Source of the DNA: Geobacter metallireducens GS-15
GTDB taxonomy: Bacteria; Desulfobacterota; Desulfuromonadia; Geobacterales; Geobacteraceae
Assembly (NCBI RefSeq): GCF_000012925.1
Contig: NC_007517.1
Span: 1,110,001 to 1,142,000, forward strand
Direction of reading: 5' to 3'
Length of the DNA stretch: 32,000 nucleotides
The position numbers and the translations under genes are program-made. The notes below the pieces were generated by a model that saw only the letters and a program-made list of their open reading frames with translations, made no database searches and had not been told where the DNA came from. Positions 3,680 through 8,546 of this stretch are shown here, one piece after another (positions within the stretch are counted from its first letter, which is position 1; the number at the start of each line of letters is the position of its first letter).

Positions 3680-3778
3680 GTGTAATCTCCGGAAATGAGA
3701 ATGGTCTACTGCCCGGTCCCCAATTCTTCAGTACGACGGCTGTTGACCTGTTCGGGCGGCTTTTTCGCGTGTGGTTTA

Positions 3779-4492
3779 TTAAAGTTCAGAAAGTTGATTC
3801 AGGACTTCGGGAAGCGAGTGAAGAGTTTCAAGAAGAAAGCACCTCTGGTGTTCCTGCAATTCGAGCCGCTTTTCATCCGAAACTGTCTCATGAGCCCATT
3901 CAAGATGATAGGGGATATGGGCGGCGTATGCGCCGACCTTGAGCGCAGGCAAGATGTCGGAAGGGACTGAATTACCAACCATCATAAATTTATCCCCGGC
4001 GATGCCATATTTATTCAATATCCGTTCATAGATGTGGTCGTCTTTTTTCGCGACTATTTCCAGTTGATGAAAATAGTTGCCTAACCCCGATCGAGCTACT
4101 TTTGCTTCCTGATGGAACAGGTCCCCTTTGGTGAGCAGAATGAGTCTGTATGTCCGCGATAATAGATCGACGGTTTCTTTTGCTCCATCCAACAGATCAA
4201 TGGGCGCATTCATCATTTCTTTGCCCAATTCTAAAATGTTACGTATTTTCTCAGCCGGGATTCTATCCTCCGTGACATCCAACGCAGTTTCTATCAATGA
4301 AAGAGTGAATCCCTTTATCCCATATCCGAAATGCTTTAAATTGCTTACCGCTTTGTCAGAGATTAAGTCATGTAGCTTGTCATTGTCATGATATCCCGCA
4401 AGGAGTTCTTGGAATTTCATCACTGAAGACTGGAAAAGGGGAGCTTCATGCCACAGAGTGTCATCTCCGTCAAAAGCTATTATTTCGATCAT
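3779..4492 (-). CDS. HAD-superfamily hydrolase
   Basis: N-terminal HAD motif I 'IAFDGDDTLWHE', motif II-like 'LLTKG', C-terminal 'MVGNSVPSDI' (motif IV-like). RBS AGAGGGAG lies upstream of the ATG. The coding sequence is AT-richer than its flanks. Confidence 0.8.
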   Translation of the reverse strand: MIEIIAFDGDDTLWHEAPLFQSSVMKFQELLAGYHDNDKLHDLISDKAVSNLKHFGYGIKGFTLSLIETALDVTEDRIPAEKIRNILELGKEMMNAPIDLLDGAKETVDLLSRTYRLILLTKGDLFHQEAKVARSGLGNYFHQLEIVAKKDDHIYERILNKYGIAGDKFMMVGNSVPSDILPALKVGAYAAHIPYHLEWAHETVSDEKRLELQEHQRCFLLETLHSLPEVLNQLSEL

Positions 4493-4586
4493 AATGCTCC
4501 CTCTATTTGGTTTTTATAACGGCTATGAGGCGCAGCGGCGGAGCGAAGCGGAGACCGGCTGTCGCCGAGTGTTGGACAATCCTATA

Positions 4587-5294
4587 TTACGGCTCAATCG
4601 TTTCTTGTGCTGGAACGGCTGCTTCAATGAACTCCAAACATTTAGGGCATTTTTTCGCAGATAGTGATATCCCCTCCCCACACATCGGACATTTCTTTTG
4701 AGTAAAATGATGTAGCGCTGACTTAAGGCTAGTGTCTTTCTGCCTTGATGAACGCTCTAAGTCATTAATTGCCCTGACTATGTCTTTATTTGAATTGGAA
4801 AATGAATCCATAGAGATCGCCAAGTACTGGGATAGATTAATTTGGCACAGTTTCTCGGTAAGGACATTTCTGTCATTTCTAAACTTGATTGTTATTTTTA
4901 AAATTCCATCTTTTTCTTTTAACTCCTGCCACTTTGGCAAACCTAATTCATATTGTAAGACCCTATGAGGGGCCAGATACGGGATCCCGCTCTGTAACCT
5001 TTCACGAGGCTGAAATCCAAAAACATGCTGCTTCAATCGTTCCCACTTAACTTCGTCTTGAATATCTACTTTTACATCGTGAGCTGCTGTCATTCCGGCA
5101 TTTCCAACCACAAGTTTTACGTAGTGATGGGATGGTTCAATGTCCACGTAAACAAGTGGATCTCTTGAGCTTTTGCTTTCTTCCACAATAGCATTGGTGA
5201 GTTTTACATATCTGGATGTTAGGAAGGCCAAAATTACAGTCGCCGAGGTTGTCACCAAGGCGCAAACAATATCGATGATGTCCTTGTAGTCCAT
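4587..5294 (-). CDS. Hypothetical protein with one N-terminal TM helix and a C-terminal zinc ribbon
   Basis: 235-aa ORF with a hydrophobic segment 'IIDIVCALVTTSATVILAFLTS' near the N-terminus and a C-terminal 'CPMCGEGISLSAKKCPKC' CxxC-x10-CxxC ribbon. I recognise no family for the central ~150 aa. It starts 39 nt after the stop of the DAC-like gene on the same strand. Confidence 0.6.
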   Translation of the reverse strand: MDYKDIIDIVCALVTTSATVILAFLTSRYVKLTNAIVEESKSSRDPLVYVDIEPSHHYVKLVVGNAGMTAAHDVKVDIQDEVKWERLKQHVFGFQPRERLQSGIPYLAPHRVLQYELGLPKWQELKEKDGILKITIKFRNDRNVLTEKLCQINLSQYLAISMDSFSNSNKDIVRAINDLERSSRQKDTSLKSALHHFTQKKCPMCGEGISLSAKKCPKCLEFIEAAVPAQETIEP

Positions 5295-5333
5295 CTTTTA
5301 TCCTTTCGGTCCAACGTCGAGAGCACAGCGGGT

Positions 5334-5716
5334 TCACTGCTGTTGCGCTTGGTTGTCATGGATTGAATTTGTTGAAGGCGTAGCCTTTTGCGCTCCCTCT
5401 GCTTCTAATTGTTGTGACTTGGCTAGTAGGCTCCTATTGATTCGCTCTTTTCTACGACGCTGGCGAACAAACTCATCGTACTGCAGCCTAATACTATCCC
5501 AATAGACTAAATCATCTCCCACCCTTGTCATCACCCGAACATCACCATCTTGGGAAACAACAAATCCAACGCTCCCCGGCACCTGAAAGCAGTAACGAAT
5601 CATAGATCGATGCCGGGTTCCGAAACGTTCATAGTTCTCAACGCGGAGACTTTGTGGCGTGGCTGTTGCAGTTGTTGAACGACAAATTCTTTGGGGGGGA
5701 GCTTGATGAAGGATTT
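5334..5716 (-). pseudogene. C-terminal fragment of the IS-interrupted DAC-like (DisA_N-like) gene
   Basis: The frame is open from the IS junction (5716) down to the stop at 5334. It encodes '...ENYERFGTRHRSMIRYCFQVPGSVGFVVSQDGDVRVMT...', which matches the DAC 'GTRHRAA ... VVSEETGxIS' signature. The track shows only the Met-initiated part (5334..5603). Confidence 0.75.
5709..5716. repeat. Target-site duplication (left copy), AAGGATTT
   Basis: Identical 8-mer immediately outside both IS termini (5709-5716 and 7089-7096). 8 bp is the usual ISL3 duplication length. Confidence 0.85.
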
Positions 5717-5738
5717 GCCTCGTCCGCAGAATCTGTGG
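5717..5738. repeat. IS left terminal inverted repeat
   Basis: GCCTCGTCCGCAGAATCTGTGG, compared with the reverse complement of the right end, GGCTCTTTAGCAGAATCTGTGG. The inner 13 nt are identical. Confidence 0.8.
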
Positions 5739-5828
5739 GTAGTTGGCTGAAAAAATAAGGGCATTGCCCCTCCGTGAAGGATAAGATTGTTTTTGCGAGA
5801 AACGATCAAGTCCGACACGGGAGAAGCA

Positions 5829-7082
5829 ATGCTTATCAAGACTGTACTGAACAAGTTCGAGCGTTTCAAGTCCTTCATTTACGGAGATTGCCGACTGGCG
5901 AAAGTCGGCGGCTCAGAAGCACTGGTCATTGACATCAAGGCTCGTCGCAACAGCAAGCCCGAATGCCCGGAATGTGGCAAGCGAGGCAAGACATACGACA
6001 CGCAACCGGCCCGACTGTTCGAGTATGTGCCGATCTGGGCGTTCAAGGTCTTCTTTCGCTACGCTCCCCGTCGGGTTCTGTGCCCAATCCATGGGGTAAA
6101 GGTTGAATCCCTCCCCTGGGGGTATGGCAAAGAGCAAATGACGATCTCGTACCAGGTCTATCTTGCCCGGTGGGCTCGGCGACTCTCCTGGAAGGAAGTT
6201 GCCGAAATCTTTAAGACCAGTTGGGACAGCATCTTTCGGGCGGTGCAGTATGCTGTCGATTACGGCCTGGCAAACAGAAACCTTGATGGCGTTACGGAAA
6301 TCGGTGTTGATGAAATTGCCGTCTTCAAGGGCCATCAGTATCTTACGATGGTCTATCAGCTCAATGCCGGCGTCAGGCGTCTTCTCTGGTGTGGTCCGCA
6401 ACGTCGGATAAGAACGCTACTGCGCTTCTTTCGGGAATTCGGCAAAGAACGCAGCGCCAAGCTCAAGTATGTCTGCAGCGACATGTGGGCACCGTATCTC
6501 AAGGTTATCGCCAAGCGGGCACCCAATGCCGTGAACATCCTCGACCGCTTCCACATCATGCGGAAGTTTAACGAAGCGATTGACGAGGTTCGGCGCACCG
6601 AAGCCAAGGAGTTCAAGGCCGCCAAGCAGGAGAACGTCCTGGAAAAGGGCCGTTGGTTGCTGCTGAAACGGCCGGAAAATCTGTCCGAGAAGCAGACGTC
6701 ACGATTGGGAGATTTGCTCAAGCTCAACCTCTCATCAATCAAGGCATATCTGCTGCGCGAGGACTTTCAGCAGTTCTGGGACTACCAGCGGTCTGACTTT
6801 GCTGGCAAGTTCCTCGACGACTGGGTCATCAGGACAATGCAAACTGACCTGGAACCGATGAAGAAGGTTGCCAGGATGTTACGCAACCACAAACCGATGA
6901 TTCTCAACTGGTTCAAGGCAAAAGGCCGACTTTCCAGCGGCGCGGTAGAGGGTCTGAACCTCAAAGCAAAACTGACTATCAGAAAAGCGTACGGTTTCCG
7001 AACCATCAAGTGCCTGCAAGTGGCGCTATATCACACACTTGGCGACTTGCCAGAACCCCTGTGTCACCACAGATTCTGCTAA
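5829..7082 (+). CDS. ISL3-family transposase
   Basis: About 417 aa from 'MLIKTVLNKFERFKSF'. It has the N-terminal zinc finger 'CPECGKRG' and a long DDE-type body ('GVDEIAVFKGHQYLTMV', 'DRFHIMRKFNEAIDEVRR') typical of ISL3 transposases. The stop codon lies inside the right IR. The track ORF starts at 5787. Confidence 0.9.
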   Translation: MLIKTVLNKFERFKSFIYGDCRLAKVGGSEALVIDIKARRNSKPECPECGKRGKTYDTQPARLFEYVPIWAFKVFFRYAPRRVLCPIHGVKVESLPWGYGKEQMTISYQVYLARWARRLSWKEVAEIFKTSWDSIFRAVQYAVDYGLANRNLDGVTEIGVDEIAVFKGHQYLTMVYQLNAGVRRLLWCGPQRRIRTLLRFFREFGKERSAKLKYVCSDMWAPYLKVIAKRAPNAVNILDRFHIMRKFNEAIDEVRRTEAKEFKAAKQENVLEKGRWLLLKRPENLSEKQTSRLGDLLKLNLSSIKAYLLREDFQQFWDYQRSDFAGKFLDDWVIRTMQTDLEPMKKVARMLRNHKPMILNWFKAKGRLSSGAVEGLNLKAKLTIRKAYGFRTIKCLQVALYHTLGDLPEPLCHHRFC

Positions 7083-8195
7083 AGAGCCAAGGATTTCGAC
7101 ACCAAAAGCTTTAACTTCCAGATCAAAATTTAATAGCACCAACCCGTCAACCCTTGACAGCAAAGATACAAACCAGATTGCCCCATCTATTTCGCTGTTA
7201 CTATCATTCAACTCGTCACTTGAAATACTTTCATCTAGATGAAGAACCAACGGCATAGTTTCGGCTTCAGGATCATCCAGTATGTCAATTATCTCAGATT
7301 CTGCTACATCCTTTTGTATCTGGTGAACTGCTCTGTGGACAAGTGCAGTTCTAAGTCTATCGTACTGTAAGTTGTACTTTATGTTCAGTCCATCATAAAT
7401 GGTGTCTGGCGTCATTAACAATGCACCACCATGGTGAAAACCACGCATACGCAGGAGTATTCTGCATAGTGTAGCTACCCAATCTGATTCAAAAGAGGCA
7501 CGCCAGCCAGATATATCGTCGTAGTACTCAGGCCCTAACTCTTCTCTGACTTTTTCCATGAATTTTGTTACCGCAGGTTGAAAATGTTTTCTAATCGGGC
7601 CATAACGAAGCACGTCGTGAGCCTCAGTTATTATTGACTCCACATTCAGCTCAGCTATTCTGTCATAGCCCTTGTACGCAGCGAGATGCCCAATCCCTAA
7701 TATGCTTGCCTGAAAAAGTCCTGGTCGTTCAGGACCACTCTCCGCATCAAAATTTAAATAATCAAAGTACCTGTTACCTTGGTCTAAAAGCCCCCAGATG
7801 AATAATTTGTTGTTATGATCGTGATAAACAGCAAATGAAGATGTACGAGGATCTGACGCCTTGGCAATTTTGACTAGAGAAGAAACAGAGAACGCTACCC
7901 TCTGCCCCAAGGGGATAAAACTCCACCTATCTTTAACGATTCGTTCCGGTGGTTTCGGGTCTGGATTTTCTGGATTGATGTAAACAATGTAACAATTAAT
8001 AGGCTGTGATTCTTCCGTCTTCAGGCTGGCAAAATACAGAGTTTGAAATAACTCTGTAAGCACAACTAGAGGTGGGGCAAGGAGTTTACGCTTCTTTAAT
8101 TCGTTTTTGACGATATGTGCGAGATGAGAGGGAGTCTTATGTTTAGATGCCATCAGTATTCCTTGCTCTGAATATTTGGACAACTTCTTATTCAC
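7026..8195 (-). CDS. N-terminal part of a sensor + DAC-like (DisA_N-like) protein, truncated by the IS. The native sequence ends at 7089; the last ~20 codons are IS-derived.
   Basis: The ORF carries 'HHGGALLMT' (the GALIVI-like DAC motif) and 'VDGLVLLNFDLEVKAFGVEIL' (the position of the DAC 'HDGAVII..I.AA' motif). It then runs into the IS ('GSLAESVVTQGFWQVAKCVI*'). The likely true start is ATG 8153 ('MASKHKTPSHL'), preceded by AAGGAA, rather than GTG 8195. Confidence 0.75.
   Translation of the reverse strand: MNKKLSKYSEQGILMASKHKTPSHLAHIVKNELKKRKLLAPPLVVLTELFQTLYFASLKTEESQPINCYIVYINPENPDPKPPERIVKDRWSFIPLGQRVAFSVSSLVKIAKASDPRTSSFAVYHDHNNKLFIWGLLDQGNRYFDYLNFDAESGPERPGLFQASILGIGHLAAYKGYDRIAELNVESIITEAHDVLRYGPIRKHFQPAVTKFMEKVREELGPEYYDDISGWRASFESDWVATLCRILLRMRGFHHGGALLMTPDTIYDGLNIKYNLQYDRLRTALVHRAVHQIQKDVAESEIIDILDDPEAETMPLVLHLDESISSDELNDSNSEIDGAIWFVSLLSRVDGLVLLNFDLEVKAFGVEILGSLAESVVTQGFWQVAKCVI
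7067..7088. repeat. IS right terminal inverted repeat
   Basis: CCACAGATTCTGCTAAAGAGCC, the reverse complement partner of 5717-5738. Confidence 0.8.
7089..7096. repeat. Target-site duplication (right copy), AAGGATTT
   Basis: Identical to 5709-5716. Confidence 0.85.
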
Positions 8196-8227
8196 CGGTT
8201 CACGCGCGTGCGCGCGTGAACCGGTGA
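8192..8227. repeat. Perfect 17-bp inverted repeat (GC-rich palindrome) upstream of the DAC-like gene
   Basis: TCACCGGTTCACGCGCG-TG-CGCGCGTGAACCGGTGA. It lies 40-75 nt upstream of ATG 8153, at the right edge of the AT-rich islet. Confidence 0.7.
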
Positions 8228-8546
8228 TCTACCCAAATGGAACATTCCTGCCAGCCCAGGGGGATTCCCATATCATCGGGCGATTCTGGCTGATCGCATG
8301 GAGATGGAGGGCTGGATTAAAACAAGCCAACTGATTTGTACCATAGGCGCGGATCAACAGCAATCAGGTTCACGCTTAATAACTGCTGCACTGATGCATC
8401 CCATTCGGCGCGTTCCGATAGTTGAACTGGCACCGTGGACCGGCCCAGTGACGGTTTTGTCCTCCGGAAGGTTGCGGTAAACGGCAAAGAAAGGTAATAG
8501 TGGAGGGCAACGCTGTGATTCTCTCCTGAAAGGAAAACCATCCGCC

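What the first reader, a model, noticed from the sequence alone, without database searches (positions are those of the whole stretch)
5334..8195. ISL3 insertion splits a large sensor + diadenylate-cyclase-like (DAC/DisA_N) gene, and the halves rejoin exactly in frame
Seen in sequence:
- The minus-strand ORF 8195->7026 runs from native sequence into the IS at 7088/7089.
- Deleting 5709-7088 (the IS plus one copy of the 8-bp duplication, 1380 bp, which is 3 x 460) joins '...LEVKAFGVEIL' directly to 'HQAPPQRICRSTTATATPQSLRVENYERFGTRHRSMIRYCFQVPGSVGFVVSQDGDVRVMT...' with no stop.
- This gives one ORF of about 479 aa from ATG 8153.

The restored C-terminal ~200 aa carries the three DAC hallmarks in the right order:
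- a GALIVI-like 'GGALLM';
- 'VDGLVLLNFDLEVKAFG', where the canonical DGA is DGL here;
- 'GTRHRS...VVSQDGDV', corresponding to canonical GTRHRAA...VVSEETG.

The N-terminal ~250 aa matches nothing I recognise and would be the sensor part. I recall that DAC domains fused to novel N-terminal sensor domains have been proposed, on computational grounds, as components of nucleotide-signalling conflict systems. I recall no experimental characterisation of such a protein. The insertion looks recent: the transposase is intact, the duplication is perfect, and no secondary decay is visible in either half.
Basis: partly seen in the sequence, partly recalled or inferred. Interest (0 to 1): 0.8.

Follow-up and report, generated by a model that had tools for sequence, protein, structure and literature searches.

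The report
IS-split sensor–diadenylate-cyclase pseudogene in Geobacter
A jumping gene (ISGme6) has recently cut in two a Geobacter metallireducens gene for a "DACNV sensor + diadenylate-cyclase-like" signalling protein; the reconstruction is correct, but both the insertion element and the protein family are already catalogued, so this is a tidy, fairly ordinary pseudogene.

Summary
An ISL3-family element (ISGme6, 5717-7088) with a perfect 8-bp duplication (AAGGATTT) interrupts a minus-strand gene. Removing 1380 bp restores a 479-aa ORF whose junction matches intact homologues.

The N-terminal part is not unknown. It is Pfam PF21751, "probable sensor domain DACNV", and NCBI already names the truncated ORF that way.

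The C-terminal part is a very divergent DAC domain:
- It never reaches Pfam's DAC cut-off (17.9 bits at most, against 27).
- The top 50 Foldseek hits of the AlphaFold model in the PDB are all CdaA, CdaM, DacM or DisA.
- DG(L), GTRHR and S-Q-D align with DGA, GTRHR and S-E-E of CdaA, and these are the most conserved segments.

The family is large (3027 representatives at 50% identity) and has a uniform architecture. It occurs in about nine phyla, usually at lower GC than its host, and several copies are disrupted. No neighbouring gene is conserved, and it matches no PADLOC model. A conflict role is therefore possible but unsupported.

The DACNV domain may itself be a degenerate DAC-like fold (weak evidence).

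Verdict: a real, recent IS-inactivated member of a family already described computationally. Interest is low to moderate.

The parts
7089..8153 (-). 5' part of the split gene (codons 1-355), starting at ATG 8153. It holds the DACNV domain, two linker helices and the first half of the DAC-like domain, including GGALLM and DGL.
   Evidence: The start is supported by alignment with homologues. GenBank/NCBI annotates a 389-aa ORF (P0001) from GTG 8195 that runs into the IS.
7785..8078 (-). DACNV domain core (residues 26-123, Pfam PF21751). The structured N-terminal domain spans about residues 8-175.
   Evidence: 57.9 bits against a cut-off of 27. All 50 homologues match.
7140..7148 (-). D336-G337-L338, the counterpart of the DAC 'DGA' motif. 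D and G are invariant; L is at least 90% conserved.
   Evidence: Read directly from the sequence as GAC GGG TTG.
7089..7096 (.). Right copy of the 8-bp target-site duplication, AAGGATTT.
5717..7088 (+). ISGme6, an ISL3-family insertion sequence of 1372 bp. Terminal inverted repeats lie at 5717-5738 and 7067-7088.
5829..7082 (+). Intact ISGme6 transposase (417 aa). It runs antisense to the interrupted gene.
   Evidence: The identical protein is listed under at least 4 accessions of strain GS-15.
5709..5716 (.). Left copy of the 8-bp target-site duplication, AAGGATTT.
5334..5708 (-). 3' part of the split gene (codons 356-479 plus the stop). It holds the second half of the DAC-like domain and a variable basic tail.
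5607..5621 (-). G385-T386-R387-H388-R389, the DAC 'RHR' motif. G, T, R and H are invariant; R389 is at least 90% conserved.
   Evidence: Read directly from the sequence as GGA ACC CGG CAT CGA. This is the only stretch that Pfam DAC recognises (profile positions 78-114).
5547..5555 (-). S407-Q408-D409, aligned with S-E-E of the CdaA 'VVSEETG' motif. D409 is the inferred metal-binding acid.
   Evidence: Read directly from the sequence as TCC CAA GAT.
3700..8250 (.). Low-GC islet (about 42-45% GC, against about 60% in the flanks). It carries the split gene, an orphan 235-aa protein with a transmembrane segment and a zinc ribbon (4587-5294, - strand), and a HAD hydrolase (3779-4492, - strand). The IS inside it is GC-richer.
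   Evidence: The same pattern is described genome-wide for G. metallireducens in PMC2700814.

Best explanation
The window comes from Geobacter metallireducens.

**What is there (shown).** A horizontally acquired, low-GC islet carries a stand-alone gene of the DACNV-DAC family. This is one of the diadenylate-cyclase architectures catalogued by Galperin (2023) and in Pfam as PF21751. A copy of the multicopy element ISGme6 (ISL3 family) has inserted into codon 355/356, between the DG(L) and RHR catalytic motifs. The annotated 389-aa product therefore lacks half of the active site, and the gene is a recent pseudogene. No further mutation has accumulated.

**How the intact protein would work (inferred).**
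- The C-terminal domain has a DAC fold with two insertions: a long helical hairpin (residues 266-336) and a loop (357-380).
- Two such domains would pair head-to-head, each holding one NTP.
- D336 and D409 would bind the metal. T386, R387, H388, R389 and S407 would hold the phosphates. These correspond to the DGA, RHR and S-E-E positions of CdaA and DisA.
- The product would be c-di-AMP or a related cyclic dinucleotide.
- The N-terminal DACNV domain is highly conserved and has its own invariant polar patch (T46-E47-E48, K95, S100-D101-P102-R103-S105, D124-Q125). It would gate this pairing in response to a conserved intracellular ligand or partner.
- No effector gene travels with it, so the signal would have to act on receptors encoded elsewhere in the host.

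**My probabilities.**
- IS-split DACNV-DAC pseudogene: 0.95.
- Intact relatives are active nucleotide cyclases: about 0.65.
- The product is c-di-AMP: about 0.5.
- The biological role is conflict or defence: about 0.35.
For: Split and repair. Intact homologues span the junction.

IS identity and copy number.

DACNV domain: 57.9 bits against 27; 50 of 50 members.

DAC fold: the AlphaFold model has pLDDT 83. Its top 50 PDB Foldseek hits are all CdaA, CdaM, DacM or DisA, with probability 0.75-1.00 (1.00 for 43 of them); TM-score normalised to the target reaches 0.45-0.62 for the DAC-only chains and 0.22-0.24 for the full-length DisA chains.

Motif alignment:
- Pfam DAC is the only other recurrent family (43 of 50 members, always the RHR segment).
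- hhalign against real CdaA sequences pairs DGL with DGA, GTRHR with GTRHR, and SQD with SEE.

Selection on the catalytic segments: pairwise identity is 74% (residues 326-356) and 69% (381-430). It is 26-41% in the linkers, inserts and tail.

A non-canonical third residue is compatible with activity. PanS uses DGF and GGR and still makes 3'3'-cUA (preprint 10.64898/2026.08.10.743927).

Horizontal acquisition:
- The gene is 16.7 GC points below its flanks here, and 7.2 points below at the median of 21 other loci.
- About nine phyla carry copies at 40-69% identity.

No decay.
Against: - By sequence profile the C-terminal domain fails Pfam's DAC gathering score (13.5-17.9 bits against 27).
- A family profile finds no PDB sequence at all.
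- The Foldseek E-values are only 1e-3 to 3e-2.
- The DGA alanine is replaced by leucine, and the metal-binding glutamate by aspartate. Two insertions interrupt the domain. Activity and product are therefore unproven.
- Full-length pTM is 0.58, so the arrangement of the domains is not reliably predicted.
- No enzymology exists for any DACNV-type protein in the literature I could search.
Confidence: 0.8

Rival explanations
1. The intact gene is a conflict or anti-phage module. DACNV would sense infection or a phage counter-defence. The DAC would then flood the cell with a cyclic dinucleotide. That signal would either activate a variable, unlinked effector or be toxic in itself, since c-di-AMP is an 'essential poison' that shuts down potassium and osmolyte uptake. 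The cost of such a module would explain why copies are repeatedly knocked out.
For: - Lower GC than the host in most genomes (median -7 points, down to -25).
- Patchy distribution over about nine phyla.
- Transposases among the nearest neighbours in 4 cases.
- A second copy is split by two DDE transposases (L027).
- Six more genomic copies are truncated, frameshifted or reduced to fragments.
- Occasional neighbours match Shedu/SduA, TIR/ThsB-like and PDC candidate models.
- DAC domains were shown in 2026 to act in defence, as CdaG/DS-2C and PanS.
Against: - No conserved partner or effector in 29 loci, even at phmmer E < 0.1 among adjacent proteins.
- The protein matches no PADLOC or PHROG model.
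- No relative was found on IMG/VR viral contigs.
- The supposed sensor is among the most conserved parts of the protein (59% pairwise identity). That is unlike a domain caught in an arms race.
- The 2026 survey of DAC families flagged only the minimal-DAC and CdaG clades as enriched for defence neighbours.
- Some of the 'broken' copies come from MAGs and may be assembly errors.
Confidence: 0.35
2. The C-terminal domain keeps the DAC fold but is no longer a cyclase. The protein would be a nucleotide-binding regulator or scaffold. It might be a c-di-AMP or ATP receptor built from one or two degenerate DAC-like domains.
For: - The sequence is so divergent that Pfam DAC is not reached.
- The DGA alanine is leucine, and there are two large insertions.
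- The N-terminal domain also weakly resembles DisA's DAC domain without any catalytic residues. Degenerate DAC-like modules may therefore exist in this protein. The same has been reported for DACNH.
Against: - D336, G337, G385, T386, R387, H388, S407 and Q408 are invariant, and R389 and D409 at least 90% conserved, across 50 sequences at 46-68% identity.
- These segments are the most conserved in the protein. That is the pattern of a preserved active site.
- Active defence DACs tolerate DGF and GGR variants.
Confidence: 0.2
3. The two halves are functional separate genes: a DACNV-only protein of 389 aa and a small C-terminal protein of 89 aa. On this reading the locus is not a pseudogene.
For: - Both pieces are open reading frames.
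- The 389-aa ORF is annotated as a protein by NCBI.
- The 89-aa ORF was called on 11 assembled contigs.
Against: - Every close relative is a single protein of 420-480 aa.
- The break lies inside a beta-strand and loop of the DAC fold, between the two catalytic motifs.
- The last 34 residues of the 389-aa ORF are read from the IS end.
- The perfect duplication and the intact multicopy IS mark a transposition event.
- A terminator-like hairpin at the IS left end faces the 3' fragment, although this is only a consensus match.
Confidence: 0.03

Closest known systems
DACNV-containing diadenylate cyclase family (Pfam PF21751 'Probable sensor domain DACNV'). It is one of the 22 DAC domain architectures proposed by Galperin, J Bacteriol 2023, doi 10.1128/jb.00023-23. 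That paper is not held in the library; its content is known to me only through and from memory.
   Same: - The N-terminal domain scores well above the Pfam cut-off.
- Length and architecture match about 3000 family representatives.
- NCBI already names the truncated G. metallireducens ORF 'putative sensor domain DACNV-containing protein'.
   Different: This copy is interrupted by ISGme6. The annotation covers only the 5' piece plus an IS-derived tail; the 3' piece is not annotated as part of it.
Canonical diadenylate cyclases CdaA/DacA, CdaM, CdaS and DisA (Pfam PF02457 DAC/DisA_N)
   Same: - The fold is shared, by Foldseek.
- The order and position of the motifs are shared: G-A-L-beta1, DG-x-beta, GTRHR-helix and V-S-x-acid-G-beta.
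   Different: - It fails the Pfam threshold.
- DGA is DGL here, and S-E-E is S-Q-D.
- A helical hairpin of about 70 residues sits before the DG motif, and a loop of about 20 residues before RHR.
- There is no membrane anchor (CdaA) and no HhH DNA-binding module (DisA).
- The regulatory domain is the N-terminal DACNV domain.
CdaG / DS-2C (DACNG-DACNH-DAC) proteins of CBASS-like DS-2 operons. They are shown to make c-di-AMP in preprint 10.64898/2026.08.10.743927 and are discussed in 10.64898/2026.08.10.743972.
   Same: - A large cytoplasmic DAC with uncharacterised N-terminal 'sensor' domains named in the same Pfam/InterPro series.
- Lower GC than the host.
- One N-terminal domain (DACNH) is reported to be a distant, catalytically dead relative of DAC. 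That parallels my weak DisA-like signal for DACNV.
   Different: - The N-terminal domains are different.
- CdaG sits next to CD-NTases and 2TM-beta effectors and is enriched for defence neighbours. The DACNV gene has no conserved neighbour.
PanS / minimal DAC of the Panoptoo/PanDA systems (same two preprints)
   Same: It is a divergent DAC domain with a non-canonical third residue in the DG-x motif (DGF) that is still active. This shows that DGL need not be inactivating.
   Different: PanS is about 150 aa, has no sensor domain, and is constitutively active. More than 90% of copies are operonic with a 2TM-beta effector. None of this applies here.
ISGme6, an ISL3-family insertion sequence of Geobacter metallireducens (ISfinder name; Aklujkar et al. 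2009, PMC2700814; Gmet_1398 in PMC6050967)
   Same: - The transposase is identical.
- It makes an 8-bp duplication.
- Its right inverted repeat starts GGCTCTTT.
- It is a GC-richer transposon interrupting a low-GC gene cluster, as described genome-wide.
   Different: Nothing differs. This is simply one of the genomic copies.

Membership tests
ISL3-family insertion sequence (ISGme6) | DDE transposase of the ISL3 type | tested here: met
   PF01610 at E 1.5e-78, with the ISL3 HTH and zinc-ribbon domains just below their cut-offs. NCBIfam NF033550 scores 309 bits against 180. The sequence is identical to the ISGme6 transposase.
ISL3-family insertion sequence (ISGme6) | Terminal inverted repeats and an 8-bp target-site duplication | tested here: met
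   The inverted repeats lie at 5717-5738 and 7067-7088 (83% complementary over 24 nt). The core GCAGAATCTGTGG occurs only at the two ends. The AAGGATTT duplication is perfect.
DACNV-containing DAC family (PF21751) | N-terminal DACNV domain above the Pfam gathering score | tested here: met
   57.9 bits against 27, residues 26-123. All 50 aligned homologues match.
DACNV-containing DAC family (PF21751) | A single polypeptide with a C-terminal DAC-like domain, colinear with family members over its full length | tested here: met
   The repaired ORF aligns end to end with homologues of 440-470 aa at 46-68% identity. Profile hits cover positions about 3-445 in proteins of 420-480 aa.
Diadenylate cyclase domain (PF02457 DAC/DisA_N) | Sequence match at or above the Pfam gathering score | tested here: not met
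   13.5 bits for the repaired protein. The best E-value among the 50 members is 8.4e-4. The family consensus reaches 17.9 bits, and the consensus with the insert removed 16.0 bits, against a cut-off of 27. Only profile positions 77-115 align. A profile search of PDB sequences finds nothing.
Diadenylate cyclase domain (PF02457 DAC/DisA_N) | DAC fold | tested here: met
   The top 50 Foldseek PDB hits of the pLDDT-83 model are all DAC enzymes. Probability is 1.00 for 43 of them and 0.75-0.99 for the rest; TM-score normalised to the target is up to 0.62; E-values are 1e-3 to 3e-2.
Diadenylate cyclase domain (PF02457 DAC/DisA_N) | RHR motif (GTRHR) at the start of the helix that follows the central strands | tested here: met
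   G385-T386-R387-H388 are invariant and R389 is at least 90% conserved. The motif aligns to GTRHR of B. subtilis and L. monocytogenes CdaA.
Diadenylate cyclase domain (PF02457 DAC/DisA_N) | DGA motif | tested here: inconclusive
   D336-G337 are invariant and align to the DG of HDGAVI, but the third residue is Leu (at least 90% conserved) rather than Ala. The hhalign P-value is only 0.0033 against a shallow template. The active PanS has DGF.
Diadenylate cyclase domain (PF02457 DAC/DisA_N) | Head-to-head pairing of two DAC domains and synthesis of c-di-AMP from 2 ATP | not testable with these tools
   No multimer modelling, model coordinates or enzymology were available.
CBASS-, Panoptes- or PanDA-like nucleotide-signalling defence operon | Cyclase encoded next to a conserved effector that senses the nucleotide | tested here: not met
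   29 loci were examined. No neighbour family recurs except among near-identical Pyrinomonadaceae genomes. Adjacent proteins share no similarity even at E < 0.1. No Pfam or PADLOC family recurs in more than 4 of 95 neighbours, and the most frequent one is a transposase.
Known or candidate anti-phage systems (PADLOC-DB v2) | Match to a system model | tested here: not met
   The repaired protein has no hit at E <= 1.

The most novel reading that the evidence does not exclude
The DACNV domain would be a degenerate duplicate of the DAC fold. The protein would then be a single-chain pseudo-DAC/DAC pair. The dead N-terminal copy would occupy or remodel the dimer face of the live one. That would give either autoinhibition or an asymmetric active site making a non-canonical nucleotide. 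The whole family would be a stand-alone, horizontally mobile immune or stress sensor that kills or arrests the cell through the host's own c-di-AMP receptors, with no dedicated effector.
Probability: 0.12. Interest if true: 0.65.

Novelty: already known. Interest (0 to 1): 0.3.

Why it matters
There is little here that is new in kind. The IS has a name, and the protein family has a Pfam entry and an NCBI product name.

Practical value:
1. The G. metallireducens annotation could be corrected to a single ISGme6-disrupted pseudogene rather than a 389-aa protein with an IS-derived tail.
2. G. metallireducens is genetically tractable and carries a natural, clean null allele. It is therefore a convenient host for testing what a DACNV-DAC protein does when restored.
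3. DAC domains have just (2026) been shown to act in anti-phage defence and to make signals other than c-di-AMP. The DACNV class remains untested. It is large (about 3000 clusters at 50% identity), stand-alone, usually of lower GC than its host, and not rarely inactivated. Its product and trigger are reasonable next questions.

Tried and rejected
**No signal for the repaired protein**
- Sequence searches of the PDB found nothing relevant, with the single protein or the family profile.
- PADLOC, NCBIfam and PHROGs gave no hit.

**Attempts to raise the Pfam DAC score above its cut-off failed**
- Neither the family consensus nor versions with the helical insert removed exceeded 17.9 bits.

**Tests of an internal duplication**
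- hhalign of the N-terminal profile against CdaA gave no signal (P = 0.51).
- hhalign of the N-terminal against the C-terminal profile gave a colinear alignment that is not significant (P = 0.15).
- The pseudo-DAC idea therefore rests only on two weak Foldseek hits to M. tuberculosis DisA.

**Search for a conserved partner or effector**
- All-against-all BLAST of ORFs within 8 kb in 29 loci found none.
- Pfam and PADLOC censuses of the two nearest neighbours on each side found none.
- phmmer among adjacent proteins found none.
- The window's downstream 235-aa protein is an orphan.
- A HAD hydrolase recurs in only one other locus (L032), which I treat as coincidence.

**Search for an uninterrupted allele**
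- The exact 29-nt repaired junction gave 0 hits in metagenome contigs.
- The best intact relative is only 69% identical and lies in a different context.

**Other negative searches**
- The IS DNA has no match in the plasmid collection.
- The family has no relatives on viral contigs.
- The window contains no tRNA genes and no Rfam families, including no c-di-AMP riboswitch.
- Promoter and terminator scans were at chance level.

**Literature**
- The Galperin 2023 paper could not be read.
- 'DACNV' occurs in no held paper as a protein domain.
- The supplements of the genome paper do not list ISGme6 by that name.

Full report
**1. The observation**

The region reads as the first-stage reader described.
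- A 1372-bp element occupies 5717-7088.
- Its ends are imperfect inverted repeats: GCCTCGTCCGCAGAATCTGTGG on the left, and GGCTCTTTAGCAGAATCTGTGG on the right when read inward. Their 13-nt core occurs nowhere else in the window.
- The element is flanked by a perfect 8-bp direct repeat, AAGGATTT, at 5709-5716 and 7089-7096.
- It encodes an intact 417-aa transposase on the + strand (5829-7082). This scores E 1.5e-78 against PF01610 and 309 bits against NCBIfam 'ISL3 family transposase', cut-off 180.
- That exact protein is the transposase of ISGme6 of Geobacter metallireducens. It is listed under at least four accessions of strain GS-15 (ABB31244 would be this copy), and a second 417-aa sequence in the same 90%-identity cluster carries two further accessions. 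The element is therefore multicopy with near-identical copies, which points to recent activity.

Deleting 5709-7088 (1380 nt) joins the two minus-strand pieces into one 479-aa ORF, from ATG 8153 to the stop at 5334-5336.

**2. The reconstruction is biologically real**

- A search of about 5.8 billion proteins returned 1186 relatives.
- The only truncated top hit is the G. metallireducens ORF itself (P0001, 389 aa). NCBI names it 'putative sensor domain DACNV-containing protein'.
- Intact homologues read straight through the junction. P0002 (69% identical) has GVELLHQVPPPRVCRSTTAAAT where the repaired protein has GVEILHQAPPQRICRSTTATAT.
- At 119 columns that are at least 90% conserved in the family, the repaired protein differs at 3, all conservatively. 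The family median is 4. No decay is detectable, so the insertion is recent.
- I found no uninterrupted allele of the same species. The repaired 29-nt junction has no exact match in the metagenome contigs, and the closest intact relative sits in a different genomic context.

**3. What the protein is**

*N-terminal part.*
- It is not unknown. Residues 26-123 match Pfam PF21751 'Probable sensor domain DACNV' at 57.9 bits (cut-off 27), as do all 50 aligned homologues.
- The name belongs to a series (DACNG, DACNH...) created for the N-terminal domains of diadenylate cyclases. These were defined in Galperin's 2023 census of 22 DAC architectures. I could not read that paper. Its content is reported in two August 2026 preprints and a review.

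*C-terminal part.* It is a very divergent DAC domain.
- By sequence profile only the RHR-to-SxD segment is recognised. Residues 379-415 align to profile positions 78-114 of 119, at 13.5 bits.
- 43 of 50 homologues give the same sub-threshold hit (best E 8.4e-4).
- Neither the family consensus nor versions with the insert removed exceed 17.9 bits against the 27-bit cut-off.
- A family profile finds no PDB sequence.

*Structure.* This is clearer.
- An AlphaFold2 model built on 50 sequences has mean pLDDT 83.
- Its 50 best Foldseek matches in the PDB are all diadenylate cyclases: CdaA/DacA of five species, CdaM, DacM, and DisA of T. maritima and M. tuberculosis.
- Probability is 1.00 for 43 of the 50 and 0.75-0.99 for the rest. 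TM-score normalised to the target is 0.45-0.62 for the DAC-only chains (0.22-0.24 for the full-length DisA chains), and E-values are 1e-3 to 3e-2.

*Motif alignment.* I recovered genuine CdaA sequences from the PDB and compared profiles. hhalign pairs the segments as follows (P = 0.0033 with a two-sequence template):
- RVDGLVLM with LHDGAVIM
- GTRHRS with GTRHRA
- VISQDG with VSEETG

*Conservation.*
- D336, G337, G385, T386, R387, H388, S407 and Q408 are invariant; R389 and D409 are at least 90% conserved.
- The two catalytic segments are the most conserved parts of the protein: 74% and 69% mean pairwise identity. The linker, inserts and tail are at 26-41%.
- This is the signature of a preserved active site.

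*Differences from canonical DACs.*
- Leu replaces the Ala of DGA.
- Asp replaces the second Glu of S-E-E.
- A helical hairpin of about 70 residues (266-336) precedes the DG motif.
- A loop of about 20 residues (357-380) precedes RHR.
- The 2026 crystal and biochemical work on PanS shows that a DAC with DGF and GGR motifs is active and makes 3'3'-cUA. The DGL variant is therefore no argument against activity, and it leaves the product open.

**4. The N-terminal domain: a possible degenerate DAC-like fold (weak)**

- Modelled alone (pLDDT 76, pTM 0.78), the DACNV domain has only two Foldseek matches that stand out. Both are chains of M. tuberculosis DisA (probability 0.85 and 0.80, E about 1e-2, TM 0.34). 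The next hit has probability 0.05.
- An hhalign of the N-terminal against the C-terminal family profile is colinear. It pairs LFxxLYFASLKTEE with LDGAIWFISLLSRVDG, and KIAKASDPRTSSFAVYHD with MRYCxxVPGSVGFVISQD. It is not significant (P = 0.15).
- One of the preprints reports the same idea for DACNH, citing Galperin.
- I record this as a lead, not a result.
- The domain has its own invariant polar residues (T46, E47, E48, K95, S100, D101, P102, R103, S105, D124, Q125). Mean pairwise identity across phyla is 59%. That suggests a conserved ligand or partner rather than a fast-evolving viral target.

**5. Context and distribution**

*In the window.*
- The gene lies in an islet of 42-45% GC (about 3700-8250) within a genome of about 60% GC.
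- The islet also holds an orphan 235-aa protein with one transmembrane segment and a C-terminal zinc ribbon (4587-5294), and a HAD hydrolase weakly resembling pyrimidine 5'-nucleotidases (3779-4492).
- The G. metallireducens genome paper already noted that clusters of low-GC genes are often interrupted or flanked by higher-GC transposons (PMC2700814). This locus is an example.

*Across other genomes.*
- The family has 3027 representatives at 50% identity with E <= 1e-3 (626 at E <= 1e-30). Architecture is almost uniform at 420-480 aa.
- In species-representative genomes it occurs in about nine phyla at 40-69% identity. These are Desulfobacterota including Geobacteraceae, Acidobacteriota, Planctomycetota, Actinomycetota, Chloroflexota, Binatota, Spirochaetota, Ca. 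Aegiribacteria and a fragment in Dormiibacterota.
- The gene is lower in GC than its flanks in 19 of 21 loci (median -7 points, down to -25).
- No relative was found on viral contigs.

*Neighbours.*
- No neighbouring gene is conserved. Clustering all ORFs within 8 kb of 29 loci gives only the gene itself, plus synteny among three near-identical Pyrinomonadaceae genomes.
- Among 95 nearest neighbours no Pfam or PADLOC family occurs more than 4 times, and the commonest is a DDE transposase.
- Adjacent proteins share nothing even at E < 0.1.
- A few neighbours match defence models (Shedu/SduA, TIR/ThsB-like, PDC candidates), once each.

*Disrupted copies.*
- Of 27 genomic loci, one (L027, Solirubrobacteraceae) is split at about residue 222 by two DDE transposases.
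- Six others are truncated, frameshifted, internally deleted or reduced to fragments (L026, L028, L029, L031, L032, L033).
- Some of these may be MAG assembly errors.

**6. Mechanism and role**

*Shown:*
- the IS-mediated split;
- the family membership;
- the DAC fold;
- conservation of the catalytic residues;
- the absence of a linked effector.

*Inferred:* intact proteins are gated nucleotide cyclases.
- Two DAC domains pair head-to-head.
- Metal is held by D336 and D409, and phosphates by T386, R387, H388, R389 and S407.
- The DACNV domain controls this pairing.
- The product, c-di-AMP or a relative, acts on receptors encoded elsewhere.

In this window the enzyme is dead. The insertion separates DG(L) from RHR, and the annotated 389-aa product ends in 34 IS-derived residues.

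The biological role is open.
- Mobility, low GC, IS association and recurrent inactivation fit an accessory, possibly costly conflict gene.
- The missing effector, the absence from PADLOC, the strongly conserved 'sensor', and the 2026 survey that flagged only the minimal-DAC and CdaG clades all argue against calling it a defence system.
- I put the conflict reading at about 0.35.

**7. Novelty and verdict**

- The insertion sequence is a named element.
- The protein family has a Pfam entry and an NCBI product name, and its architecture was described computationally in 2023.
That is correct, and useful for annotation. It also gives a natural null allele in a tractable organism.
- It is not a new kind of system.
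- The most novel residue is the untested idea that DACNV is a dead DAC copy regulating a live one in a stand-alone mobile signalling enzyme.
- Interest: 0.3.

Noticed in passing
window 8192-8227: A perfect GC-rich hairpin: 17-nt arms (TCACCGGTTCACGCGCG / CGCGCGTGAACCGGTGA) with a 2-nt loop. It lies about 40 nt upstream of the gene's ATG, at the edge of the low-GC islet. No T-run follows on either strand, so it is not an intrinsic terminator. It could be an operator, a REP-like element or an island boundary.
   Followed up: partly
L027 3386-8612 (Solirubrobacteraceae MAG, CAWFKF010000117.1): An independent disruption of the same gene family in another phylum. Residues 31-221 and 225-431 are separated by about 4 kb carrying two DDE transposases, of the Transposase_29/DDE_Tnp_1 and DDE_Tnp_1_4 types.
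   Followed up: yes
L026, L028, L029, L031, L032, L033: Further copies of the family are truncated (L026, residues 4-197 only), frameshifted (L028, L029), internally deleted (L031) or reduced to fragments of about 100 residues (L032, L033). Together with the window and L027, this makes about 8 of 28 genomic copies non-intact. Some may be MAG assembly artefacts.
   Followed up: partly
window 4587-5294 (- strand): An orphan 235-aa protein lies 39 nt downstream of the split gene, on the same strand and in the same low-GC islet. It has one N-terminal transmembrane segment, a beta-rich middle and a C-terminal zinc ribbon. It is found essentially only in G. metallireducens. It has a weak PHROG match of unknown function (phrog_9607, E 1e-3), and no homologue sits next to other family members. 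A role as a local effector cannot be excluded.
   Followed up: partly
window 3779-4492 (- strand) and L032 7187-7789: The islet contains a HAD hydrolase with weak, sub-threshold similarity to YjjG-type pyrimidine 5'-nucleotidases. A 36%-identical HAD lies immediately upstream of the DAC fragment in L032 (Ca. Dormiibacterota). This is two of 29 loci and probably coincidence.
   Followed up: partly
window 7026-8195 (- strand): The database ORF for this gene (P0001, 389 aa) starts at GTG 8195, 14 codons upstream of the start supported by homologues (ATG 8153, preceded by AAGGA). Its last 34 residues (GSLAESVVTQGFWQVAKCVI...) are translated from the IS end. The 3' fragment (5334-5603, 89 aa) is not annotated by NCBI.
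   Followed up: yes
window 5757-5771 (- strand): A terminator-like hairpin followed by a T-run (AGGGGCAATGCCCTT ATTTTTT) lies just inside the left end of ISGme6, reading toward the 3' gene fragment. It would block read-through from the IS into that fragment. This is a consensus match only, and the region's total count is at chance level.
   Followed up: no
family alignment A1 (residues 8-170 versus the rest): The presumed sensor domain is more conserved across phyla (59% mean pairwise identity) than the linkers and inserts (26-41%), and nearly as conserved as the catalytic segments. This is unusual for a domain supposed to recognise fast-evolving invaders.
   Followed up: partly
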